A stretch of DNA of 36,784 nt from positions 1 to 36,784 of the IMG/VR virus record IMGVR_UViG_2778261535_000012, one strand, 5' to 3'. Below are positions 1,100 to 7,594 of this stretch, piece after piece. This DNA comes from a virus (lineage: Duplodnaviria; Heunggongvirae; Uroviricota; Caudoviricetes). The translations under genes were made by a program, and so were the position numbers. Position 1 is the first letter of the stretch. Each line of letters opens with the position of its first letter. The notes under the pieces were generated by a model that was given only the letters and a program-made list of their open reading frames with translations, was not told where the DNA came from and ran no database searches.

Positions 1100-2035
1100 T
1101 CAGTAATTATGTACTGAAGGAGGTAATTCTTTATTCTTAAGTCTCATCCATGCGGAAAGATTCGTTGGTCCGTCTGGCTCATTGATATCAACATCTCGTG
1201 TGTGATTAATTAAAACGTCTCTCGCTATATCTATAATACGGGAGAACTCATAACCGCAGTCATGACATCTGCCGGAATAGTTCGATTGAATTTGTTTCAG
1301 CGCCGGATACAGTTCGCGGAATAATGCCTGTGAGCGGTTGGCATAATCCCATAACCATACAAGGCTGTTTGCTTCTTTTGCAGAAAGCTCGTTGGTTTTC
1401 TTCTCTTGTTTGCCAATGAACTCACCTTCAAGTGGAACTCGAGCTGCAAGTGATAGTGCTTCGGTAAACTGCTCCTCACTGATTTCTTTGTACGAACATC
1501 CAAAATGGGATTTTAGTGACGACCACATGGTGATCATCGCCTTAGCCTGTTTTTCTTTTGGTAGAGACTGACCGCGACTCATGACGAGTTGTTTAATGGC
1601 TTCCTGCTGTTCAGTGGTGATTTTACCCGGCAACGCCTTTTTAGCTTTGCGTGGGTTAACTACATGGCCTTTAGTCCAGTAGTCATGCAGCACGCTAAAG
1701 CATTCATCCTGGTACTGAATCAGTTTATCACGGATGTCAGCACGAACTTTCTCAGGGTTGATGCTGAACAGCCATCCATTTAACTTCTTCAAAGGAAGGC
1801 AGAGTAGCTTACGAAGCTTCCCATCAGCGGCAACCATGTTCATATGAACACAGTTGAATTTGCTAATCTGCTTCATGAGTTTTGTTTGCTGCGTTGACCA
1901 GCTCATTCCAAGGTTTTCAACGATTGGCTTCATCGCAACATATGCAACTCCGGCAGCCATGGCGGTGATAATTTGCTGACCGTTGAATGGTACGTAAGAG
2001 GTGTTCACTGCTTCTAAAATTGCTATACTATTCAT
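1100..2035 (-). CDS. ant: Antirepressor Ant
   Basis: Translation [22 protein letters not shown]... resembles P22 Ant; position next to arc/mnt. Start chosen at the internal Met (ATG 2035) rather than the ORF-track start at 2101. Confidence 0.75.
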
Positions 2036-2097
2036 GTTGGTTTTTCTCCACGGATTTACTGACAACCGAAGCCCTGACTGTTCCCGCAGTTGGGGCT

Positions 2098-2301
2098 TCA
2101 ACTTTCTGCTCTATCAGTTATATCTTTCCCTTCGTATACTTCACCTATATTGCTAATGCTGGCAGAACATCCAAGATGCTTGTATCTTATGATGTCCAAC
2201 ACGCAGTCACTACACAGCATCCGACCTGTTTCTTTAGAGTAAATGTATGTTTGATCAGCGTCTGATTCGCTAATGCCGCAGAAACAACATTCTTTACTCA
2301 T
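2098..2301 (-). CDS. Small Cys-rich protein (zinc-ribbon-like, CxC...CxxC), unknown function
   Basis: 67-aa ORF; its ATG overlaps the arc-like stop (ATGA), which suggests translational coupling. Cysteine pairs CCFC and CSDC. Confidence 0.5.
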
Positions 2302-2438
2302 ACTGTTATCCCCTCTCTTTTCAGGCTGTCCAACACCCGTTTAATTACTTCTGCGCTAAATGAGCGACACTCTTCCTTTGCTTTCTCTTCAAGGATTTTT
2401 TCTAACTTCTCTGGCATACGCAGTGTTTTTACCTTCAT
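2298..2438 (-). CDS. arc: Arc-like ribbon-helix-helix repressor
   Basis: Hand translation [46 protein letters not shown] (46 aa, below the ORF-track cutoff); RHH-like N-terminus; divergent from mnt as in P22 immI. Confidence 0.6.
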   Translation of the reverse strand: MKVKTLRMPEKLEKILEEKAKEECRSFSAEVIKRVLDSLKREGITV

Positions 2439-2440
2439 TG

Positions 2441-2543
2441 CATCCTCCGTTGTATGTGGTACGCATACATAGTATTTAGGTACGCATTGATAGTCAATAG
2501 ATACCTACATATCCTGTGGTAAAAAATTATTCAGGATGCGCCG
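2441..2543. promoter_or_regulatory. Divergent promoter/operator region between arc-ant and mnt operons
   Basis: Direct repeats GGTACGCAT at 2458-2466 and 2479-2487 (21 bp apart) and partially palindromic AGGTA...TACCT at 2478-2506 between two divergently transcribed RHH repressor genes. Confidence 0.4.
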
Positions 2544-2795
2544 ATGTCTGATCGTAAGTACAAAAACCCTCAAGTGAATCTGAGGCTTCCTGTAGAGATA
2601 AAGGAACGTCTTATTGAGCTGGCTGAGGCTAATTCTCGTTCATTAAATGCTGAGATGGTAGCAGCACTTGAGGCATGGACTGAAAAAAATAAACATATTC
2701 AAGCACTAGATCTTGCAACTATAGCATCGCGGTTGATAGAGCTTGAGCATGAGGTTGAGAAGTTAAAATGTATGCATGGCAACAGTGAAAAATGA
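2544..2795 (+). CDS. mnt: Mnt-like RHH repressor (maintenance of lysogeny)
   Basis: 83 aa, same length as P22 Mnt; N-terminal RHH pattern (NLRLPVEIKERL...ANSRSLNAEMV); divergent from arc. Confidence 0.7.
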   Translation: MSDRKYKNPQVNLRLPVEIKERLIELAEANSRSLNAEMVAALEAWTEKNKHIQALDLATIASRLIELEHEVEKLKCMHGNSEK

Positions 2796-3106
2796 AACGT
2801 ATCGCTATTTTGTTAATATTGTTCTTCTCTACAATAGTTTGCGCCAAACAAAAATCAGATAATGGCGATCTTAAAGGCCTGCAAGAACTCATGATAACTT
2901 CGAAATTTGCTGGCATGTGCGGCACAATCAAACAAATGGCAACATTTCAAGAATCAACAAAAATGCCTGGCGGAGATGAGTTCTTACAGCGTTTTCTGAC
3001 CACAGAGCAAGCAAGACTAGGAATGAATCCACAGGAGTTTCTTGAAACATGCCAGAAGTCAATTTCAGCTTATACCAATTATTACAATCTAACTTCTGAT
3101 AAATAA
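2792..3106 (+). CDS. Exported protein with N-terminal signal peptide, unknown function (moron)
   Basis: MKRIAILLILFFSTIVCAKQ signal-peptide-like N-terminus; ATG overlaps mnt stop (ATGA). Confidence 0.6.
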   Translation: MKRIAILLILFFSTIVCAKQKSDNGDLKGLQELMITSKFAGMCGTIKQMATFQESTKMPGGDEFLQRFLTTEQARLGMNPQEFLETCQKSISAYTNYYNLTSDK

Positions 3107-3131
3107 TAGAAAGGATTTTATAAATAACTTT

Positions 3132-3617
3132 ATGAAAAAATCACTATTAATTATCCCGCTTCTGCTGGCTGGATGCGCAAAAGTAAGTGACTACCAAGCA
3201 AGTTGCGAACAACGCTATCCAAAGCTTAGTGATATGGCTAATTGCCTTGATGCCAGCGTGAAGAACGACTCACGCATGGCATCAGCACCAACACCTAAGC
3301 TGTATGTCCTTGCTGCGAAGATGCTCGGGCAAGGTGTCGATGAAGGCAAGATAAGTGACGCACAGGCAAGACTTGAGCTTCAGAATCTTTACGTTCAATT
3401 ACAAAGCCAAGAACAAGCCCAACAAATAGCGCAAAGCCAAGCATTCCAGCAGGCTTTATTGAATTATCAGGCTGTAAACACAATGCAAGCGATCGAGCAA
3501 AAAGCGCGCCAGCCTGTTATAACTCAACCTTACCCAACACGCGTTGACACATATACAAACTGCAATTCAGGATTTGGAAACACGGTAACATGCAACAGTA
3601 GCAGTAATATCAGGTAG
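3132..3617 (+). CDS. Lipoprotein with Q-rich C-terminal region, unknown function (moron)
   Basis: MKKSLLIIPLLLAGCAK has a lipobox (LAGC); occupies the position of sieA in P22 between mnt and gene 16. Confidence 0.65.
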   Translation: MKKSLLIIPLLLAGCAKVSDYQASCEQRYPKLSDMANCLDASVKNDSRMASAPTPKLYVLAAKMLGQGVDEGKISDAQARLELQNLYVQLQSQEQAQQIAQSQAFQQALLNYQAVNTMQAIEQKARQPVITQPYPTRVDTYTNCNSGFGNTVTCNSSSNIR

Positions 3618-3631
3618 TTATATCTTATCTT

Positions 3632-5479
3632 TTATTGCTGTTCTGCTGTAATTTGGCTTGAAAGTATAGGGCGTATCGCATTTGCAGCATTATTTAGCGC
3701 TCTTTCATAGGCTGGTGTTCCTGCTTTGGTGTTTGCCAAACGTAAGAGAGCATTCCTTGCTGCTTTGGACTCATACAAGCGCATCATTGCACCGAAACCA
3801 GCCTCAAGCCCCATTGATACGCCAAGAGTCGCAGTTGCGCCAATCGTCCTTATCCTGTTGGCTTGCGATTGCCCCGTCTGAGTTACTACATTTGCGGTGT
3901 CTGACCTTGCTGTTTGCTGTAGAACTTCATGAAGAGAATCAAGCTCTTTCATGTGCTTTCCAGAAAAAATAGTGTTGTAAATTTCACCACCTGACTGAGA
4001 TTTCAGCTTATTAACTTCAGTGATGAACTTGGCTGGAGAGTCACCGGCCTTTTCCGCTATTTTGCTGACGTAAGCTGCACGCATAGCATCTTTCCCTTTA
4101 TCATCCAATGCGCTCCAGATTCGTTTCACGTCAGATGGTTTTCTGCTTAATACAACGATATTTATAAGTTCAGGACTGGCTTCACTGCTTGCCTTGTTGA
4201 GCTTGTTAGCAATGCTTTTATTAAGCACCTTATTATAAACGTTTGCATAATCGGAATTTGCTTTAAGGTATTTTGCTGCGTCTGACGCACCGAGGTTTTT
4301 TGCAACTGCGTTACGAAGGTCTTTTGACATTGCATTCTCTACCATATTGGTAGCTGCTTTTGCCTGGTTGGGGAAGACCATAGCATCTCCCTGAACATTA
4401 GATCTAAATGCTGTTCTGTGCTGACGCAATAGATCAAACGTAACATCCAAATCAGTTGCAGGGTTTGCTAATTCTTCACGTAGGTTACGCAAGGATGTAA
4501 GCAGGCTTTGATTGGCTGAAGTCCCAAGCCGTTCCTGTCTTGCGATCGCTGTATTCAGAGCATTCATGGTATTTGTGGTATCAACTGCGGCATTACCCAT
4601 TTTATTGGTGACGTCATTGATAACAGCGCCAGCAGCATCCTTCCGCCCCCTTAACGTGGTGGTCAGAGATTTCACCACATCATCAGGGTTGTACTCACCA
4701 AAACGGTCAAAATAATTGCTTACCAGCTTACTACGCGTTGCATATTGCTCCGCTCGCTTTGAGCCTGTCCCGAGCAAAGCCCCCTCGGCATCCTGAGTAA
4801 TGCCGCGAGTGAAGGCATTATTCGGCGGGATAACATCAGATGTCATTGGTGTCACGCCCATCGATTCTGATGTGGCAATTTTCTTCACCACTTCTGGTGC
4901 AATATCACCTTTTATAGCCGTTATTCCACGCCCTATTCCCTTTGCTGCTGCGGAAAGAACCCCCTGAGCGGCAAGGTTAACTCCGGCATTTTTGGCTGCA
5001 TTTTGTGCGAAATCGCCTTTCTGATTTGCGGCCTCTGCCAGTGATCCAATAGCCATGCTTCCTGCCGTTCCAACTCCTGGAACTAAATACCCGCCAATTG
5101 TTTCTCCAGCTTGCGCATAAGGGTCTGTCGGTCGATCGACTGGACGATAGACATCATCCAATACTTTTGGCCCACCAAGCCCCTGACTGATTGCATTAAT
5201 CAGACTTGCGCCACCCTGCAATACGTCAAATGGTATGTTTACCAGACCACGACCAGCCTGTTCTGCAATTTGCCCTGCACTTTGACCACCAGTGAGCCAA
5301 TCGCCAGCTTGTTGCATCAATGATGGTTCTTCCCGTGTTGGTGCATTATTGGCCTGATTAACTGTTTGTTGCTGAACAGCCTGACCAGCAAAATACTCAT
5401 CAATGGCGGTGCCAATATCTTCGGTGCTCGTACCATCAGGAAAGGTAAATGTCTTACCGTTTGCAGTTACTTTCATCAT
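3632..5479 (-). CDS. DNA ejection/injection protein (P22 gp16-like)
   Basis: 615 aa (P22 gp16 about 609 aa); conserved position at the end of the virion module; Ala/Gly-rich. Confidence 0.75.
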
Positions 5480-6891
5480 TCCACCGTAAATTGAATGCCT
5501 GATTTTGAGGTATATGATCCAACCTGATTCCGTGGTTCTCCTGAAGGTGTCGAATCTTGTGCTGGCGCTGCGTCAGTATTCATTGACATATACCGCTTAA
5601 CGGCACTCCCCAATGATTCACCTTTTTTAACATCCAACCCCAATATCTGACCGCCATTACGCGATTGTCCAGGGTTGCCATTCGCGCTCATCCACTCGGC
5701 TTTAAACTCATTAAACTGCGCGTTTCGTCGCTCAAGGTTTGCCATTGCATCAAGCCATCTTGCGACCGTCTCAGGGTTATCCATGTCAGTTGGCGCACCC
5801 TGTCGAACGATCTCAACGTCTTTATCCGTTGCTGGGCCGGGAGGTAGGAATTTAAGAACCTGACTGTTAACAAGGGCATTTTGGCGAATGCGCAAATCAC
5901 GCAATGTCGTATCGCTTCCGGTAAGTTTTGCGAACATGTTCTGTGCGTTACCGAACAAACCTGTCGTTGGTTTTTCTGCTCTGAACTGTTGAGCAAGCGC
6001 ACTCATGGAATTGGCTGAGTTTGATGATGCTGTGGCATTGTTTACAGCCGTCTCGATGCCTTTTTCCATGTTTACTGACAGCTTAGGTGCTTCGCTAATC
6101 AACTGCTGAGCCTTTTCCTGCGCTTGCTGCATCTTAAACCCGAACTCTTGCTGATCCAGAGCCAAACGTTGTGCTGCGATATTGTGCCCAGTCATTGCTG
6201 ACTGATAGGAAAGGTTTTGTCCTCTCGCCTGAAGTGCTTCACCAGCCTGATTGCTGCGGATTGTCTCTGCCAGCCTGCCTCGGTCAATTTCACGACCAGC
6301 CATCTTATCCTGAACAGCAAACGCCTTTTCTGGTCCAAGCGCACCGAGAGACATAGTAGTCAGCATGTGTGATAGCTGCTCTGGATTCTGGATACCTGTC
6401 TGAATCATCCAGTCAGCATTAGCACCAACGCGATTTAACCTGTCCTTGTTGTCAGTAATGAATTTACTGTAGGCTTCCGGCCCCTGAGAAAGAGCGACGT
6501 TAGCCCTCATGGCTAAATCGCCCATATCGTTGCGTTGCTGATCATTAAGACCGGAAAACGCCTGTTGTGCCTGTGCAACAAACGCTGGATTTTCCTGGGC
6601 AAACTTAAATAGTCCCGATGGATCACCAGAAGCCCATGCATCAGCGTGAACCTTATTGAACGCACTAATAGCTTTCTGTTGCTGTTCCTGATTGTAAATA
6701 TCAGCAACTCCAGCCAGACCACGTAACGCGGTCAGACCAACGTTATTTGCACCTGAGCGAGCCAGTTCATTGTTTTCGCGGATCAGACCAAGCGTTGCGT
6801 TAATGTCGCTTGCCTTTGGCGCATTCTCATTTTGCGCACCAATGCCAGCCAGAAAACCACCAGAATTAATACCCTGTTGCCACGTAGCCAT
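5476..6891 (-). CDS. DNA ejection protein (P22 gp20-like)
   Basis: 471 aa, same size as P22 gp20; synteny. Confidence 0.75.
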
Positions 6892-6901
6892 TGATTACCC
6901 C

Positions 6902-7594
6902 TTAAAACAACGAGCCAAGCAGACCAAGACCGCCGCCAACAGCGGCACCAATACCAGTACCAATACCGGGAACAATGCTGCCAAGCTGTGCTCCAGCAAT
7001 TGCTCCAGAGGCAGCCCCGCCTATTGCAGATTGAAGGCCGGAAGGTCTATTAGCGTTTGCCGCCGCCAGTGCCGCGCTTTGCTGTGAAATCTGGCTCATG
7101 TTGTTGGCATATGTTTGCCCGGCGTTTGCCTGCCCCTGAAGAGCGCCAAGACCAATATTTGCCAGATTCTGGTAGTTGTTCATCTGGCCAGACAGCCACT
7201 GCTGACCAAGCGTTGGTGCGATTGTTGCTAACTGATTACTGGTTGCGGTGGAACCTAATCCACCTGTTGCTTCCGCTGCCGCCAGACTCTGATAGCGCGC
7301 CTGACCAGCAAGGTCTTTGTACTGCTGAGAGTTGTAATACTGGTTAAGCGCCTGACCTTGCCCCTCCAGAGACGATAAGTTCTCGAGGCTGCCGACATAC
7401 TTCTCAGCCAGAGGAGTAAACGGTTTCAGGTTGTTCATGATGGTGTTGAACTGCTGATTTTGCAGGTCTGCGGAATACTTCTGGGCTTCTGCTGCATACT
7501 TTGCGCTTTTATCGGCTCCACCTTTCCCGCCTTTTTCAGGGCAATAAGGTTCCTCGCCGCGCAGTTTTCTGCCCAGCTTAAATGCATATAACAT
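6902..7594 (-). CDS. DNA ejection protein (P22 gp7-like)
   Basis: 230 aa (P22 gp7 about 229 aa); Gly/Ala-rich hydrophobic C-terminus; synteny. Confidence 0.7.
   Translation of the reverse strand: MLYAFKLGRKLRGEEPYCPEKGGKGGADKSAKYAAEAQKYSADLQNQQFNTIMNNLKPFTPLAEKYVGSLENLSSLEGQGQALNQYYNSQQYKDLAGQARYQSLAAAEATGGLGSTATSNQLATIAPTLGQQWLSGQMNNYQNLANIGLGALQGQANAGQTYANNMSQISQQSAALAAANANRPSGLQSAIGGAASGAIAGAQLGSIVPGIGTGIGAAVGGGLGLLGSLF

What the first reader, a model, noticed from the sequence alone, without database searches (positions are those of the whole stretch)
2792..3617. Two exported-protein morons fused to the mnt operon at the sieA position
The mnt repressor gene is followed by a 104-aa signal-peptide protein (ATGA-coupled to mnt) and a 161-aa lipoprotein (lipobox LAGC, Q-rich C-terminus), convergent with the injection-protein genes. 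In P22 this slot carries superinfection exclusion gene sieA, an inner-membrane protein. A periplasmic protein plus a lipoprotein co-expressed with a lysogeny-maintenance repressor is the expected layout for an envelope-acting superinfection-exclusion or lysogenic-conversion pair, but neither protein resembles any exclusion protein I can name.
Basis: partly seen in the sequence, partly recalled or inferred. Interest (0 to 1): 0.75.

Follow-up and report, generated by a model that had tools for sequence, protein, structure and literature searches.

The report
Two exported prophage genes replacing sieA
In this P22-like E. coli prophage, the place where phage P22 keeps its anti-superinfection gene sieA holds two unrelated accessory genes of unknown function, a small periplasmic protein and an outer-membrane lipoprotein, which makes them good but untested candidates for a new way of blocking incoming phages.

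Summary
The immI region beside them (mnt, arc, sar, ant) is intact.

- **Not an obligate pair.** In about 125 related loci each gene always sits between mnt and gene 16 on the mnt strand, but they assort independently.
- **orfB is allelic with sieA.** In some relatives it sits behind a 96%-identical copy of P22's mnt-orf59a-terminator-PsieA region, up to 7 nt before the sieA start. No locus carrying orfA or orfB has a type A or B sieA.
- **Expression.** Published RNA-seq of a 98.8%-identical orthologue (phage Gally in LF82) shows the second-highest prophage transcript in LB and roughly 16-fold more in macrophages.
- **Selection.** orfB is under very strong purifying selection (dN/dS 0.01-0.06).

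Neither protein matches Pfam, NCBIfam, PADLOC, PDB or BFVD. Both belong to large unnamed families that also occur on other mobile elements and on chromosomes. The function is untested. Envelope-level superinfection exclusion is the leading inference. The variability of this slot (the "ant moron") is already known.

The parts
2544..2795 (+). mnt (Arc/Mnt-family maintenance repressor), first gene of the transcription unit
   Evidence: Pfam Arc E=2.9e-10; phrog_795 at 3.2e-24. 94% nt identity to CUS-3 mnt.
2792..3106 (+). orfA: 104-aa secreted (periplasmic) protein. Signal peptide of about 1-18 (VCA|K), then a three-helix bundle with two conserved Cys (C43, C87) and an invariant loop FQESTKMPGGDEF. 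Its start overlaps the mnt stop (ATGA).
   Evidence: alignment A1. AF2 pLDDT 77.8 with helices 24-56, 61-76 and 80-102. phrog_19844. 315 homologous clusters. dN/dS about 0.16.
3132..3617 (+). orfB: 161-aa lipoprotein with lipobox LAGC and Cys15; the +2 Ala predicts outer-membrane sorting. It has a helical N-domain with C25/C38, a long Gln-rich helix, and a C-terminal Cys144-Gly-Cys154 beta-hairpin. It occupies the position of the P22 sieA ORF.
   Evidence: A2; AF2; phrog_6067; sieA-leader junction in relatives; dN/dS 0.01-0.06; orthologue RNA-seq.
3107..3131 (+). 25-nt orfA-orfB spacer. It lacks the PsieA-derived leader and the AAGGAG Shine-Dalgarno found upstream of orfB in most relatives. 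The only SD-like AAAGGA lies about 17 nt upstream of the ATG.
   Evidence: Sequence comparison of upstream regions. Homology to Gally begins at 3131.
2469..2515 (.). Overlapping divergent promoter-like sites: Pmnt (+, 2487-2515) and Pant (-, 2497-2469)
   Evidence: same layout as the annotated P22 Pant/Pmnt.
2458..2511 (.). Candidate Arc/Mnt operators: two 21-nt direct repeats (2458-2478, 2479-2499) and an 18-nt inverted repeat (2473-2490 / 2494-2511)
2298..2438 (-). arc repressor gene (neighbouring, divergent unit)
   Evidence: Pfam Arc 3.7e-08.
2036..2103 (+). sar antisense RNA of the immI region (neighbouring)
   Evidence: Rfam RF00262, 95.6 bits, E=2.9e-20.
1100..2101 (-). ant antirepressor (neighbouring). 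The true start is probably the ATG at 2035.
   Evidence: Pfam P22_AR_N 1.2e-44 and P22_AR_C 1e-28. Residues 23-32 of the ORF ([10 protein letters not shown]) are identical to the first ten residues of P22 Ant.
3632..5479 (-). Gene-16 homologue (ejection/DNA-transfer protein), convergent right boundary of the slot
   Evidence: annotated 'DNA transfer protein' in O104:H4.

Best explanation
orfA and orfB are two independent accessory (moron) genes in the hypervariable cargo slot of P22-like phages, between mnt and ejection-protein gene 16. This is the slot that holds orf59a and sieA in P22.

**orfA.** It is exported by Sec to the periplasm as a disulfide-bonded three-helix protein of about 86 aa. 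It is translationally coupled to Mnt.

**orfB.** It is lipidated at Cys15 and sorted to the inner leaflet of the outer membrane. Its helical N-domain, long Gln-rich helix and C-terminal disulfide hairpin project into the periplasm.

**Transcription.** In this prophage both are transcribed with mnt from Pmnt. In most relatives orfB instead uses the sieA promoter and leader.

**Shown:**
- the anatomy and the export signals;
- slot fidelity across relatives;
- allelism of orfB with sieA;
- purifying selection on both genes;
- transcription of an orfB orthologue in a lysogen.

**Inferred:** the products act in the lysogen's envelope. orfB most likely does the job that SieA does from the inner membrane, which is to stop DNA delivery by superinfecting P22-like phages. 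It would do so from the outer-membrane or periplasmic side, either by binding a conserved host envelope component the ejection apparatus needs or by binding the ejection conduit itself. orfA would be a separate periplasmic factor, expressed alongside Mnt, with a similar or different envelope role.
For: - **Slot fidelity.** In about 125 loci from IMG/VR, GTDB genomes and GenBank phages, orfA and orfB always lie between mnt and gene 16/20 on the mnt strand.
- **Allelism with sieA.** In mnt-orf59a-orfB loci (for example L022) the 814 nt upstream of orfB are 96% identical to P22 mnt-orf59a-tmnt-PsieA, up to 7 nt before the sieA start. Most other orfB loci keep the last 29-41 nt of that leader.
- **Mutual exclusivity.** No type A (P22) or type B (E. 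coli HS) SieA was found in the window or in any locus fetched, at E<=0.01. In the literature 22 of 66 P22-like phages carry sieA (PMC10883804).
- **Expression.** Gally LF82_138, 98.8% identical to orfB, gives 70 normalised counts in LB against a prophage median of 15.6. It ranks second after c2. Its log2 value rises from about 6.1 in LB to about 10.3 in the MB1 columns.
- **Export signals are conserved family-wide**.
- **Purifying selection.** For orfB, dN<=0.011 while dS reaches 0.37. For orfA, dN/dS is about 0.16.
- **Cassette behaviour.** orfB stays 98-100% identical while the adjacent gp16 ranges from 33 to 99% identity.
- **Mobile-element carriage.** Distant orfB relatives are cargo of P4-like islands and other mobile elements. 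An orfA relative lies next to the cI-type repressor (HTH_3 + Peptidase_S24) in a Pseudomonas prophage, and others follow mnt-like genes in long-tailed phages.
- **Operon structure.** No promoter or terminator signal lies between mnt and the end of orfB.
Against: - No functional data exist for either protein.
- Neither matches SieA, Cor, Llp, Bor, TraT or any PADLOC defence model.
- The fold searches that could be run found nothing.
- Some relatives of both families sit in ordinary chromosomal neighbourhoods. This fits a generic envelope role as well as it fits exclusion.
- orfB's extreme sequence conservation next to hypervariable gp16/gp20 argues against direct recognition of those proteins.
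- In this window orfB has lost the PsieA leader and its strong Shine-Dalgarno. Pmnt-driven transcripts were at background in LB in Gally and undetected in Kapi1 lysogens, so expression here may be low or conditional.
- The authors of the Gally study did not call the orthologue a moron. It fell just under their 5-fold cut-off.
Confidence: 0.45

Rival explanations
1. Host-fitness or virulence conversion rather than phage exclusion. orfB, and perhaps orfA, would alter the lysogen's envelope to help it in the host. Examples would be stress, serum or phagocyte tolerance or outer-membrane homeostasis, as lambda Bor does, with no effect on phages.
For: - The Gally orthologue and its neighbours are strongly induced in cell-culture medium and inside macrophages (PMC9928086).
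- orfB is carried by pathogenic lineages, including O104:H4 outbreak isolates and AIEC LF82.
- Very strong purifying selection and independence from the gp16/gp20 type fit a conserved host target.
- Family members occur in chromosomal contexts.
Against: - Deleting the whole Gally prophage did not change LF82 survival in macrophages (PMC9928086).
- There is no homology to Bor, TraT, Lom/Ail or PagC families.
- The exact replacement of sieA behind its own promoter, and carriage on phage satellites and islands, suggest a phage-versus-phage role.
Confidence: 0.25
2. orfA and orfB form an obligate two-component envelope system, a periplasmic partner plus a lipoprotein anchor.
For: - They are adjacent and apparently co-transcribed here and in 18 complete E. 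coli genomes.
- They are also juxtaposed in a second architecture, where a 72%-identical orfA allele lies 470 nt upstream of orfB (L017/L101).
- Both are disulfide-containing envelope proteins.
Against: - orfB lacks orfA in 168 of 186 E. coli genomes and in all five GenBank phages that carry it.
- About 32 of 42 orfA loci lack orfB.
- The two families have different taxonomic ranges and contexts.
Confidence: 0.1
3. The genes serve the phage's own lytic cycle or virion, for example lysis or spanin-like, assembly, or protection of progeny from adsorbing to debris. They would not be lysogen-expressed accessory genes.
For: - The slot lies inside the late operon region.
- There is a weak PHROG similarity of the orfB N-terminus to an Rz-like spanin (E=0.058, signal-peptide region only).
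Against: - The genes are on the strand opposite the late genes and converge on gene 16.
- The prophage has what appears to be its own lysis cassette: three consecutive ORFs at 19083-20300, matching in size and order the holin, lysozyme and lysis genes annotated in the related E. coli HS prophage. I did not scan these three ORFs themselves.
- Presence/absence polymorphism among otherwise functional phages (Gally, Kapi1, P22, CUS-3) shows the genes are dispensable.
- The orthologue is transcribed in the lysogen.
Confidence: 0.05

Closest known systems
P22 SieA (inner-membrane superinfection-exclusion protein; types A, B, C)
   Same: - Same genomic position and strand, as the last gene before the end of gene 16.
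- In some relatives orfB uses the same promoter and leader.
- The two are mutually exclusive.
- Both are prophage accessory genes of P22-like phages.
   Different: - SieA is a polytopic inner-membrane protein with an FxRYPxEAxxFNK motif.
- orfB is a lipobox lipoprotein predicted for the outer membrane, with no transmembrane helices beyond the signal peptide and no sequence similarity.
- orfA sits at the orf59a position, not the sieA position.
Cor (phi80/N15/HK022) and Llp (T5): outer-membrane lipoproteins that exclude phages by inactivating the receptor FhuA
   Same: - They are small phage-encoded outer-membrane lipoproteins with disulfides that act from the periplasmic face.
- This is the mechanistic class that orfB most resembles on paper.
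   Different: - There is no sequence relationship. The PHROG Cor hit has E=0.078 and covers the signal peptide only.
- orfB is larger, with a long Gln-rich helix and a C-terminal hairpin.
- P22-like phages use O-antigen, and no FhuA link is known.
- The target of orfB is unknown.
P1 Sim and T4 Imm/Sp: envelope proteins that block DNA entry after adsorption
   Same: By my own knowledge, not tested here, Sim is a signal-peptide periplasmic protein expressed from a prophage. That makes it a functional analogue for what orfA could be.
   Different: No detectable homology: orfA hits only its own PHROG of unknown function. orfA is much smaller. Its function is untested.
Lambda Bor / plasmid TraT (lysogen-expressed outer-membrane lipoproteins conferring serum resistance or surface exclusion)
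   Same: They are prophage- or plasmid-borne outer-membrane lipoproteins expressed in the carrier cell.
   Different: No Pfam match to either family. The architecture differs.
The 'ant moron' of P22-like phages (Villafane et al. 2008, PMC2629481)
   Same: [quoted passage not shown]
   Different: As far as the searchable literature shows, these two gene families and the exact sieA-to-orfB ORF swap have not been described.

Membership tests
SieA superinfection-exclusion proteins (types A/B) | Sequence homology to P22 SieA or E. coli HS SieA, including the FxRYPxEAxxFNK motif | tested here: not met
   tblastn of both SieA types against the window and all loci at E<=0.01 hit only P22 and HS themselves. 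orfB hits only phrog_6067.
SieA superinfection-exclusion proteins (types A/B) | Polytopic inner-membrane topology | tested here: not met
   orfB has a lipobox signal peptide and no further hydrophobic helices; the AF2 model is a soluble helical domain plus a hairpin. orfA has only a signal peptide.
SieA superinfection-exclusion proteins (types A/B) | Position between gene 16 and mnt, expressed from the prophage | tested here: met
   Position shown. The PsieA leader is retained upstream of orfB in relatives. Orthologue RNA-seq.
SieA superinfection-exclusion proteins (types A/B) | Blocks DNA injection by P22-like phages | not testable with these tools
   Needs plating, potassium-efflux and DNA-entry assays.
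Cor/Llp-type exclusion lipoproteins | Sequence homology to Cor or Llp | tested here: not met
   PHROG Cor family E=0.078 over residues 1-29 only; no other hit.
Cor/Llp-type exclusion lipoproteins | Phage-encoded outer-membrane lipoprotein (lipobox, no Asp at +2) | tested here: met
   LLAGC followed by Ala-Lys. Cys15 is invariant in A2. 215 of 236 family members have a lipobox, with no Asp at +2. This is sequence prediction only.
Cor/Llp-type exclusion lipoproteins | Inactivates an outer-membrane phage receptor | not testable with these tools
   No target is known; needs adsorption and interaction experiments.
Prophage moron / accessory gene | Presence/absence polymorphism between conserved flanking genes in related phages | tested here: met
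   At least seven slot architectures were seen: mnt-B, mnt-[opposite-strand ORF]-B, mnt-orf59a-B, mnt-A-B, mnt-A, A+orf59a, and sieA.
Prophage moron / accessory gene | Transcribed in the lysogen independently of lytic genes | tested here: inconclusive
   The orthologue of orfB in Gally is the second-highest prophage transcript in LB and is induced in macrophages. There are no data for this prophage, where orfB depends on Pmnt, and none for orfA. The Kapi1 paper gives no value for the orfA homologue.
mnt operon (co-transcription with mnt) | Same strand, overlapping or short spacers, no intervening promoter or terminator | tested here: met
   ATGA overlap and a 25-nt spacer. No promoter-like or terminator-like site in 2516-3617. 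In silico only.
Sec-exported periplasmic protein (orfA) | N-terminal signal peptide with an AXA-type cleavage site and conserved paired cysteines in the mature part | tested here: met
   MKR + hydrophobic 4-17 + VCA|K. 113 of 121 family members have an N-terminal hydrophobic stretch, and 82 of 87 with the MPGG motif have exactly two Cys. The Kapi1 homologue is annotated 'signal 1-22' by DeepTMHMM. SignalP was not available.
Lambda Bor / TraT | Pfam family membership | tested here: not met
   No Pfam hit for orfB at E<=1.
Known anti-phage defence systems (PADLOC) | Match to any PADLOC-DB model | tested here: not met
   0 families for orfA and orfB at E<=1.

The most novel reading that the evidence does not exclude
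orfB would define a new class of superinfection-exclusion protein: an outer-membrane lipoprotein that evolution has swapped ORF-for-ORF with the inner-membrane SieA. It would block the P22-type ejection-protein conduit, or a conserved host factor that conduit needs, from the outer-membrane or periplasmic side. Relatives on phage satellites and other mobile elements would do the same in other Proteobacteria. orfA would be a second, Sim-like periplasmic blocker wired to the Mnt maintenance circuit.
Probability: 0.3. Interest if true: 0.7.

Novelty: new variant of a known kind. Interest (0 to 1): 0.5.

Why it matters
If orfB excludes phages, it would be a second, mechanistically different solution at the same locus as SieA. 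It would act on the outer-membrane or periplasmic stage of podovirus DNA delivery, which is poorly understood. Its interaction partner could be used to probe how the gp7/gp20/gp16 conduit crosses the envelope.

The gene is common. It is in 186 of 5,426 complete E. coli genomes, including O104:H4 outbreak isolates and AIEC LF82. It is extremely conserved and is induced inside macrophages, so an alternative role in host interaction would also be relevant.

Both proteins belong to large unnamed families (at least 250 representatives at 50% identity for orfB, at least 315 clusters at 90% identity for orfA). One functional assignment would therefore annotate many genes.

The general fact that this slot carries variable cargo is already established, and nothing here shows function.

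Tried and rejected
- **Family libraries.** Pfam, NCBIfam and PADLOC gave no meaningful hit for orfA or orfB. The weak hits (RVT_N, T3SS needle, GspK, spanin, Cor) are below threshold and cover low-complexity or signal-peptide regions, so I rejected them.
- **PDB sequence profiles.** Nothing below E=0.99.
- **Literature.** Searching by protein accessions and locus tags found nothing. The Kapi1 lysogen transcriptome paper gives no value for the orfA homologue.
- **Terminator.** I looked for a bidirectional terminator between orfB and gene 16. There is a hairpin, but its z-score is -0.28, so it is not significant.
- **Rejected ideas.**
  - That orfA's 'VCA' is a lipobox: the Cys is not conserved.
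  - That the GGDEF string in orfA signals a diguanylate cyclase: the protein is a 104-aa exported helical bundle.
  - That orfB tracks the gp16 type: 98-100% identical orfB sits next to gp16 of 33, 42, 49 and 99% identity.
- **Low yield.** The GTDB genome scan returned only 5 loci.
Full report
**1. What is there**

The window is a P22-like (Lederbergvirus-type) E. coli prophage. At its left end the order is as follows:

| Feature | Coordinates | Strand |
|---|---|---|
| tailspike N-terminus | runs off the window | - |
| ant | 1100-2101 | - |
| sar antisense RNA (RF00262, 95.6 bits) | 2036-2103 | + |
| 67-aa Cys-rich ORF | 2098-2301 | - |
| arc | 2298-2438 | - |
| overlapping divergent Pant/Pmnt with repeats | 2458-2515 | . 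|
| mnt | 2544-2795 | + |
| orfA | 2792-3106 | + |
| orfB | 3132-3617 | + |
| homologues of ejection genes 16, 20, 7 | 3632-7594 | - |

- The orfA ATG overlaps the mnt stop codon (ATGA).
- orfB follows orfA after 25 nt and ends 14 nt before the gene-16 stop.
- The consensus scan finds no promoter-like or terminator-like site between Pmnt and the end of orfB, so the three genes look like one transcription unit.
- In P22 the same stretch reads mnt, orf59a, terminator, PsieA, sieA, then the end of gene 16.

**2. The proteins**

*orfA*
- It has a typical Sec signal: MKR, a hydrophobic core, then VCA|K.
- AlphaFold with a 16-sequence alignment gives a three-helix bundle (pLDDT 77.8).
- The alignment shows two invariant cysteines (C43, C87) and an invariant loop FQESTKMPGGDEF between helices 1 and 2.

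*orfB*
- It has a canonical lipobox (LLAGC) followed by Ala-Lys, so by the +2 rule it is predicted to go to the outer membrane.
- The model (pLDDT 61.7 overall, 72-83 for residues 20-90) shows three parts:
  - a small helical N-domain with C25/C38;
  - a long, low-confidence Gln-rich helix to about residue 124;
  - a C-terminal beta-hairpin closed by C144/C154.
- Across 236 family members, 215 have a lipobox and none has Asp at +2. 151 end in the Cys-x-Gly-x-Cys hairpin, usually with a terminal Tyr/Phe/Trp or Arg.

*Database matches*
- Neither protein matches Pfam, NCBIfam or PADLOC.
- PDB sequence profiles and Foldseek against PDB or BFVD found nothing.
- Each protein matches one PHROG of unknown function end to end.

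**3. Are they real and selected?**

Yes. Comparing the window with related loci:
- orfB shows dN<=0.011 while dS reaches 0.37, giving dN/dS of 0.01-0.06.
- orfA against its 71%-identity allele gives dN/dS of about 0.16.

**4. Comparative context**

I fetched about 125 loci that encode relatives, from GenBank phages, IMG/VR and GTDB genomes, and mapped reference proteins onto them.

In every P22-like locus, orfA and orfB lie between mnt and gene 16/20 on the mnt strand. They are independent cassettes, and the architectures seen were:
- mnt, 95 nt, orfB (the most common);
- mnt, an opposite-strand lipoprotein gene, orfB (Gally type);
- mnt, orf59a, 417 nt, orfB;
- mnt-orfA-orfB (the window type);
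- mnt-orfA alone;
- orfA with orf59a.

Frequencies in complete E. coli genomes and in GenBank phages:
- orfB occurs in 186 of 5,426 complete E. coli genomes.
- This orfA allele occurs in 18 genomes, and 18 genomes carry the full mnt-orfA-orfB arrangement. The strains listed in both searches coincide. About a dozen are O104:H4 isolates.
- All five GenBank phages with orfB lack orfA.

The 'pair' reading therefore fails, although the two genes have come together in two different architectures.

orfB remains 98-100% identical at the protein level while the neighbouring gp16 varies between 33 and 99% identity. It behaves as a conserved cassette moving through mosaic backgrounds.

**5. orfB is allelic with sieA**

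- In mnt-orf59a-orfB loci, the 814 nt upstream of orfB are 96% identical to P22 from mnt through orf59a, the mnt terminator and the annotated sieA promoter. The identity ends 7 nt before the sieA start codon.
- Most other orfB loci retain the last 29-41 nt of that leader, including AAGGAG.
- The orfB ORF has therefore replaced the sieA ORF precisely, behind sieA's own expression signals.
- Neither P22-type nor E. coli HS-type SieA is detectable in the window or in any fetched locus carrying orfA or orfB. SieA is reported in 22 of 66 P22-like phages (PMC10883804).
- In the window itself this leader is absent. Homology to other orfB loci starts at the ATG, and the 25-nt spacer offers only a distant AAAGGA. 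Here orfB depends on upstream transcription and may be translated less efficiently.

**6. Expression evidence from the literature**

Gally, the P22-like prophage of AIEC LF82, carries a 98.8%-identical orfB (GALLYPH_13 = LF82_138). Table S1 of PMC9928086 gives the following:
- 70 normalised counts in overnight LB, against a prophage median of 15.6 and 727 for c2. This is the second-highest gene, just under the authors' 5-fold moron cut-off of 78.
- log2 values of about 6.1 (LB), 8.0-8.2 (columns B1/B6), 10.3 (MB1) and 8.6 (MB6). By my reading of the column labels, the MB columns are macrophage-internalised bacteria.
- The text reports that the five rightmost prophage genes are induced 6- to 40-fold in macrophages.

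Caveats:
- In Gally orfB is not in the mnt operon, and mnt itself is at background level in LB.
- In the Kapi1 lysogen, mnt was not detected in LB or simulated intestinal fluid (PMC12922286).
- Curing Gally did not change survival in macrophages.

**7. Wider families**

*orfB family.* A profile search of 1.84 billion representatives found 250 relatives (96 at E<=1e-10). Most are lipoproteins of 125-140 aa sharing the N-domain and the C-terminal hairpin, with no Pfam model. Five contexts were sampled:
- two look chromosomal (uvrC/pgsA/EarP, and Sel1/thioredoxin);
- three are on mobile elements (cargo of an integrase-AlpA-primase island, an integrase-DUF3987 island, and next to a 3,215-aa ddrB-ParB protein).

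*orfA family.* It has at least 315 clusters across Proteobacteria and Campylobacterota. Members sit:
- after mnt-like genes in long-tailed phages;
- between the early-left operon and the cI-type repressor gene in a Pseudomonas lambdoid prophage;
- also in chromosomal or island contexts.

Both are broad, uncharacterised envelope-protein families that temperate phages repeatedly place in slots next to lysogeny regulators.

**8. Most likely mechanism**

*Shown:*
- Both are exported accessory genes.
- orfB is a sieA allele.
- An orfB orthologue is transcribed in a lysogen.
- Both are under purifying selection.

*Inferred:* they act in the lysogen's envelope. The leading hypothesis (about 0.45) is that orfB excludes superinfecting phages at the outer-membrane or periplasmic stage. 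It would be functionally analogous to Cor or Llp lipoproteins and would replace SieA's inner-membrane block.

- Its extreme conservation, independent of gp16/gp20 type, favours a conserved host target over direct recognition of the variable ejection proteins.
- By helix length only (about 49 residues, roughly 7 nm), the Gln-rich helix could hold the C-terminal hairpin near the peptidoglycan layer. This is speculation.
- orfA would be a separate periplasmic factor tied to Mnt expression.

*Rivals:*
- host-fitness or virulence conversion (0.25);
- an obligate two-component system (0.1);
- a role in the lytic cycle or virion (0.05).

**9. Comparison and novelty**

- SieA biology is also published (PMC10883804).
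- These two gene families are annotated only as hypothetical proteins or lipoproteins. I found no paper that mentions them.
- New here:
  - the exact sieA-to-orfB swap;
  - the independence of orfA and orfB;
  - the strength of selection on orfB;
  - the size of both families;
  - the link to existing RNA-seq data.
- This is best classed as a new, untested variant of a known kind: a prophage envelope moron and candidate exclusion protein.

**Verdict**

Interest is moderate (0.5). It is a well-defined, common and easily testable candidate, but there is no functional evidence and the general phenomenon is known.

Noticed in passing
window 2036-2103 (+): A sar antisense RNA (Rfam RF00262, 95.6 bits) overlaps the 5' end of ant, so the whole immI circuit (mnt, arc, sar, ant) is intact. 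The ant ORF listed from a TTG at 2101 probably starts at the ATG at 2035, because its residues 23-32 are identical to the first ten residues of P22 Ant.
   Followed up: partly
window 2098-2301 (-): A 67-aa Cys-rich ORF (CxxC ... CxxC; phrog_7150, function unknown) is inserted between arc and ant. It is present in only a few relatives (CUS-3, L051, L091, L098, L106).
   Followed up: partly
window 27760-28236 (+): This ORF (phrog_2651, function unknown) lies immediately downstream of, and overlaps the end of, the c2-type repressor gene (27203-27835). That is the rexAB/bstA-like position where lysogen-expressed defence genes often sit.
   Followed up: no
window 35537-36784 (-): A 415-aa ORF at the right end of the window matches only phrog_17800 (function unknown, E=2.3e-181).
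   Followed up: no
L001 3448-3867 (- in locus; Gally GALLYPH_14 = LF82_139): In Gally-type slots a second, unrelated 139-aa lipoprotein (MKRIIGVVAGAILLSGC...) lies on the opposite strand between mnt and orfB. In the LF82 RNA-seq table it is induced even more strongly than orfB (log2 about 5.5 in LB, 10-11 in medium and macrophages). The slot in other relatives also holds small two-TM proteins, so it seems enriched for envelope cargo.
   Followed up: partly
window 2792-3106 (orfA residues 57-64): The invariant loop KMPGGDEF contains the string GGDEF. In a 104-aa exported helical protein this is almost certainly coincidental, but the loop is the most conserved feature and is likely the functional site.
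   Followed up: no
window 3107-3131: In the window-type arrangement orfB has lost the PsieA-derived leader and the AAGGAG ribosome-binding site that nearly all other orfB loci keep. The recombination joint is exactly at the ATG.
   Followed up: yes
L112-L114 (IMG/VR contigs), around 5400-6300: In long-tailed phages with a tape-measure gene adjacent, an orfA homologue again directly follows a longer (142-148 aa) Mnt-like gene next to an antirepressor. The mnt-orfA linkage is therefore older than, and independent of, the P22-like virion module.
   Followed up: partly
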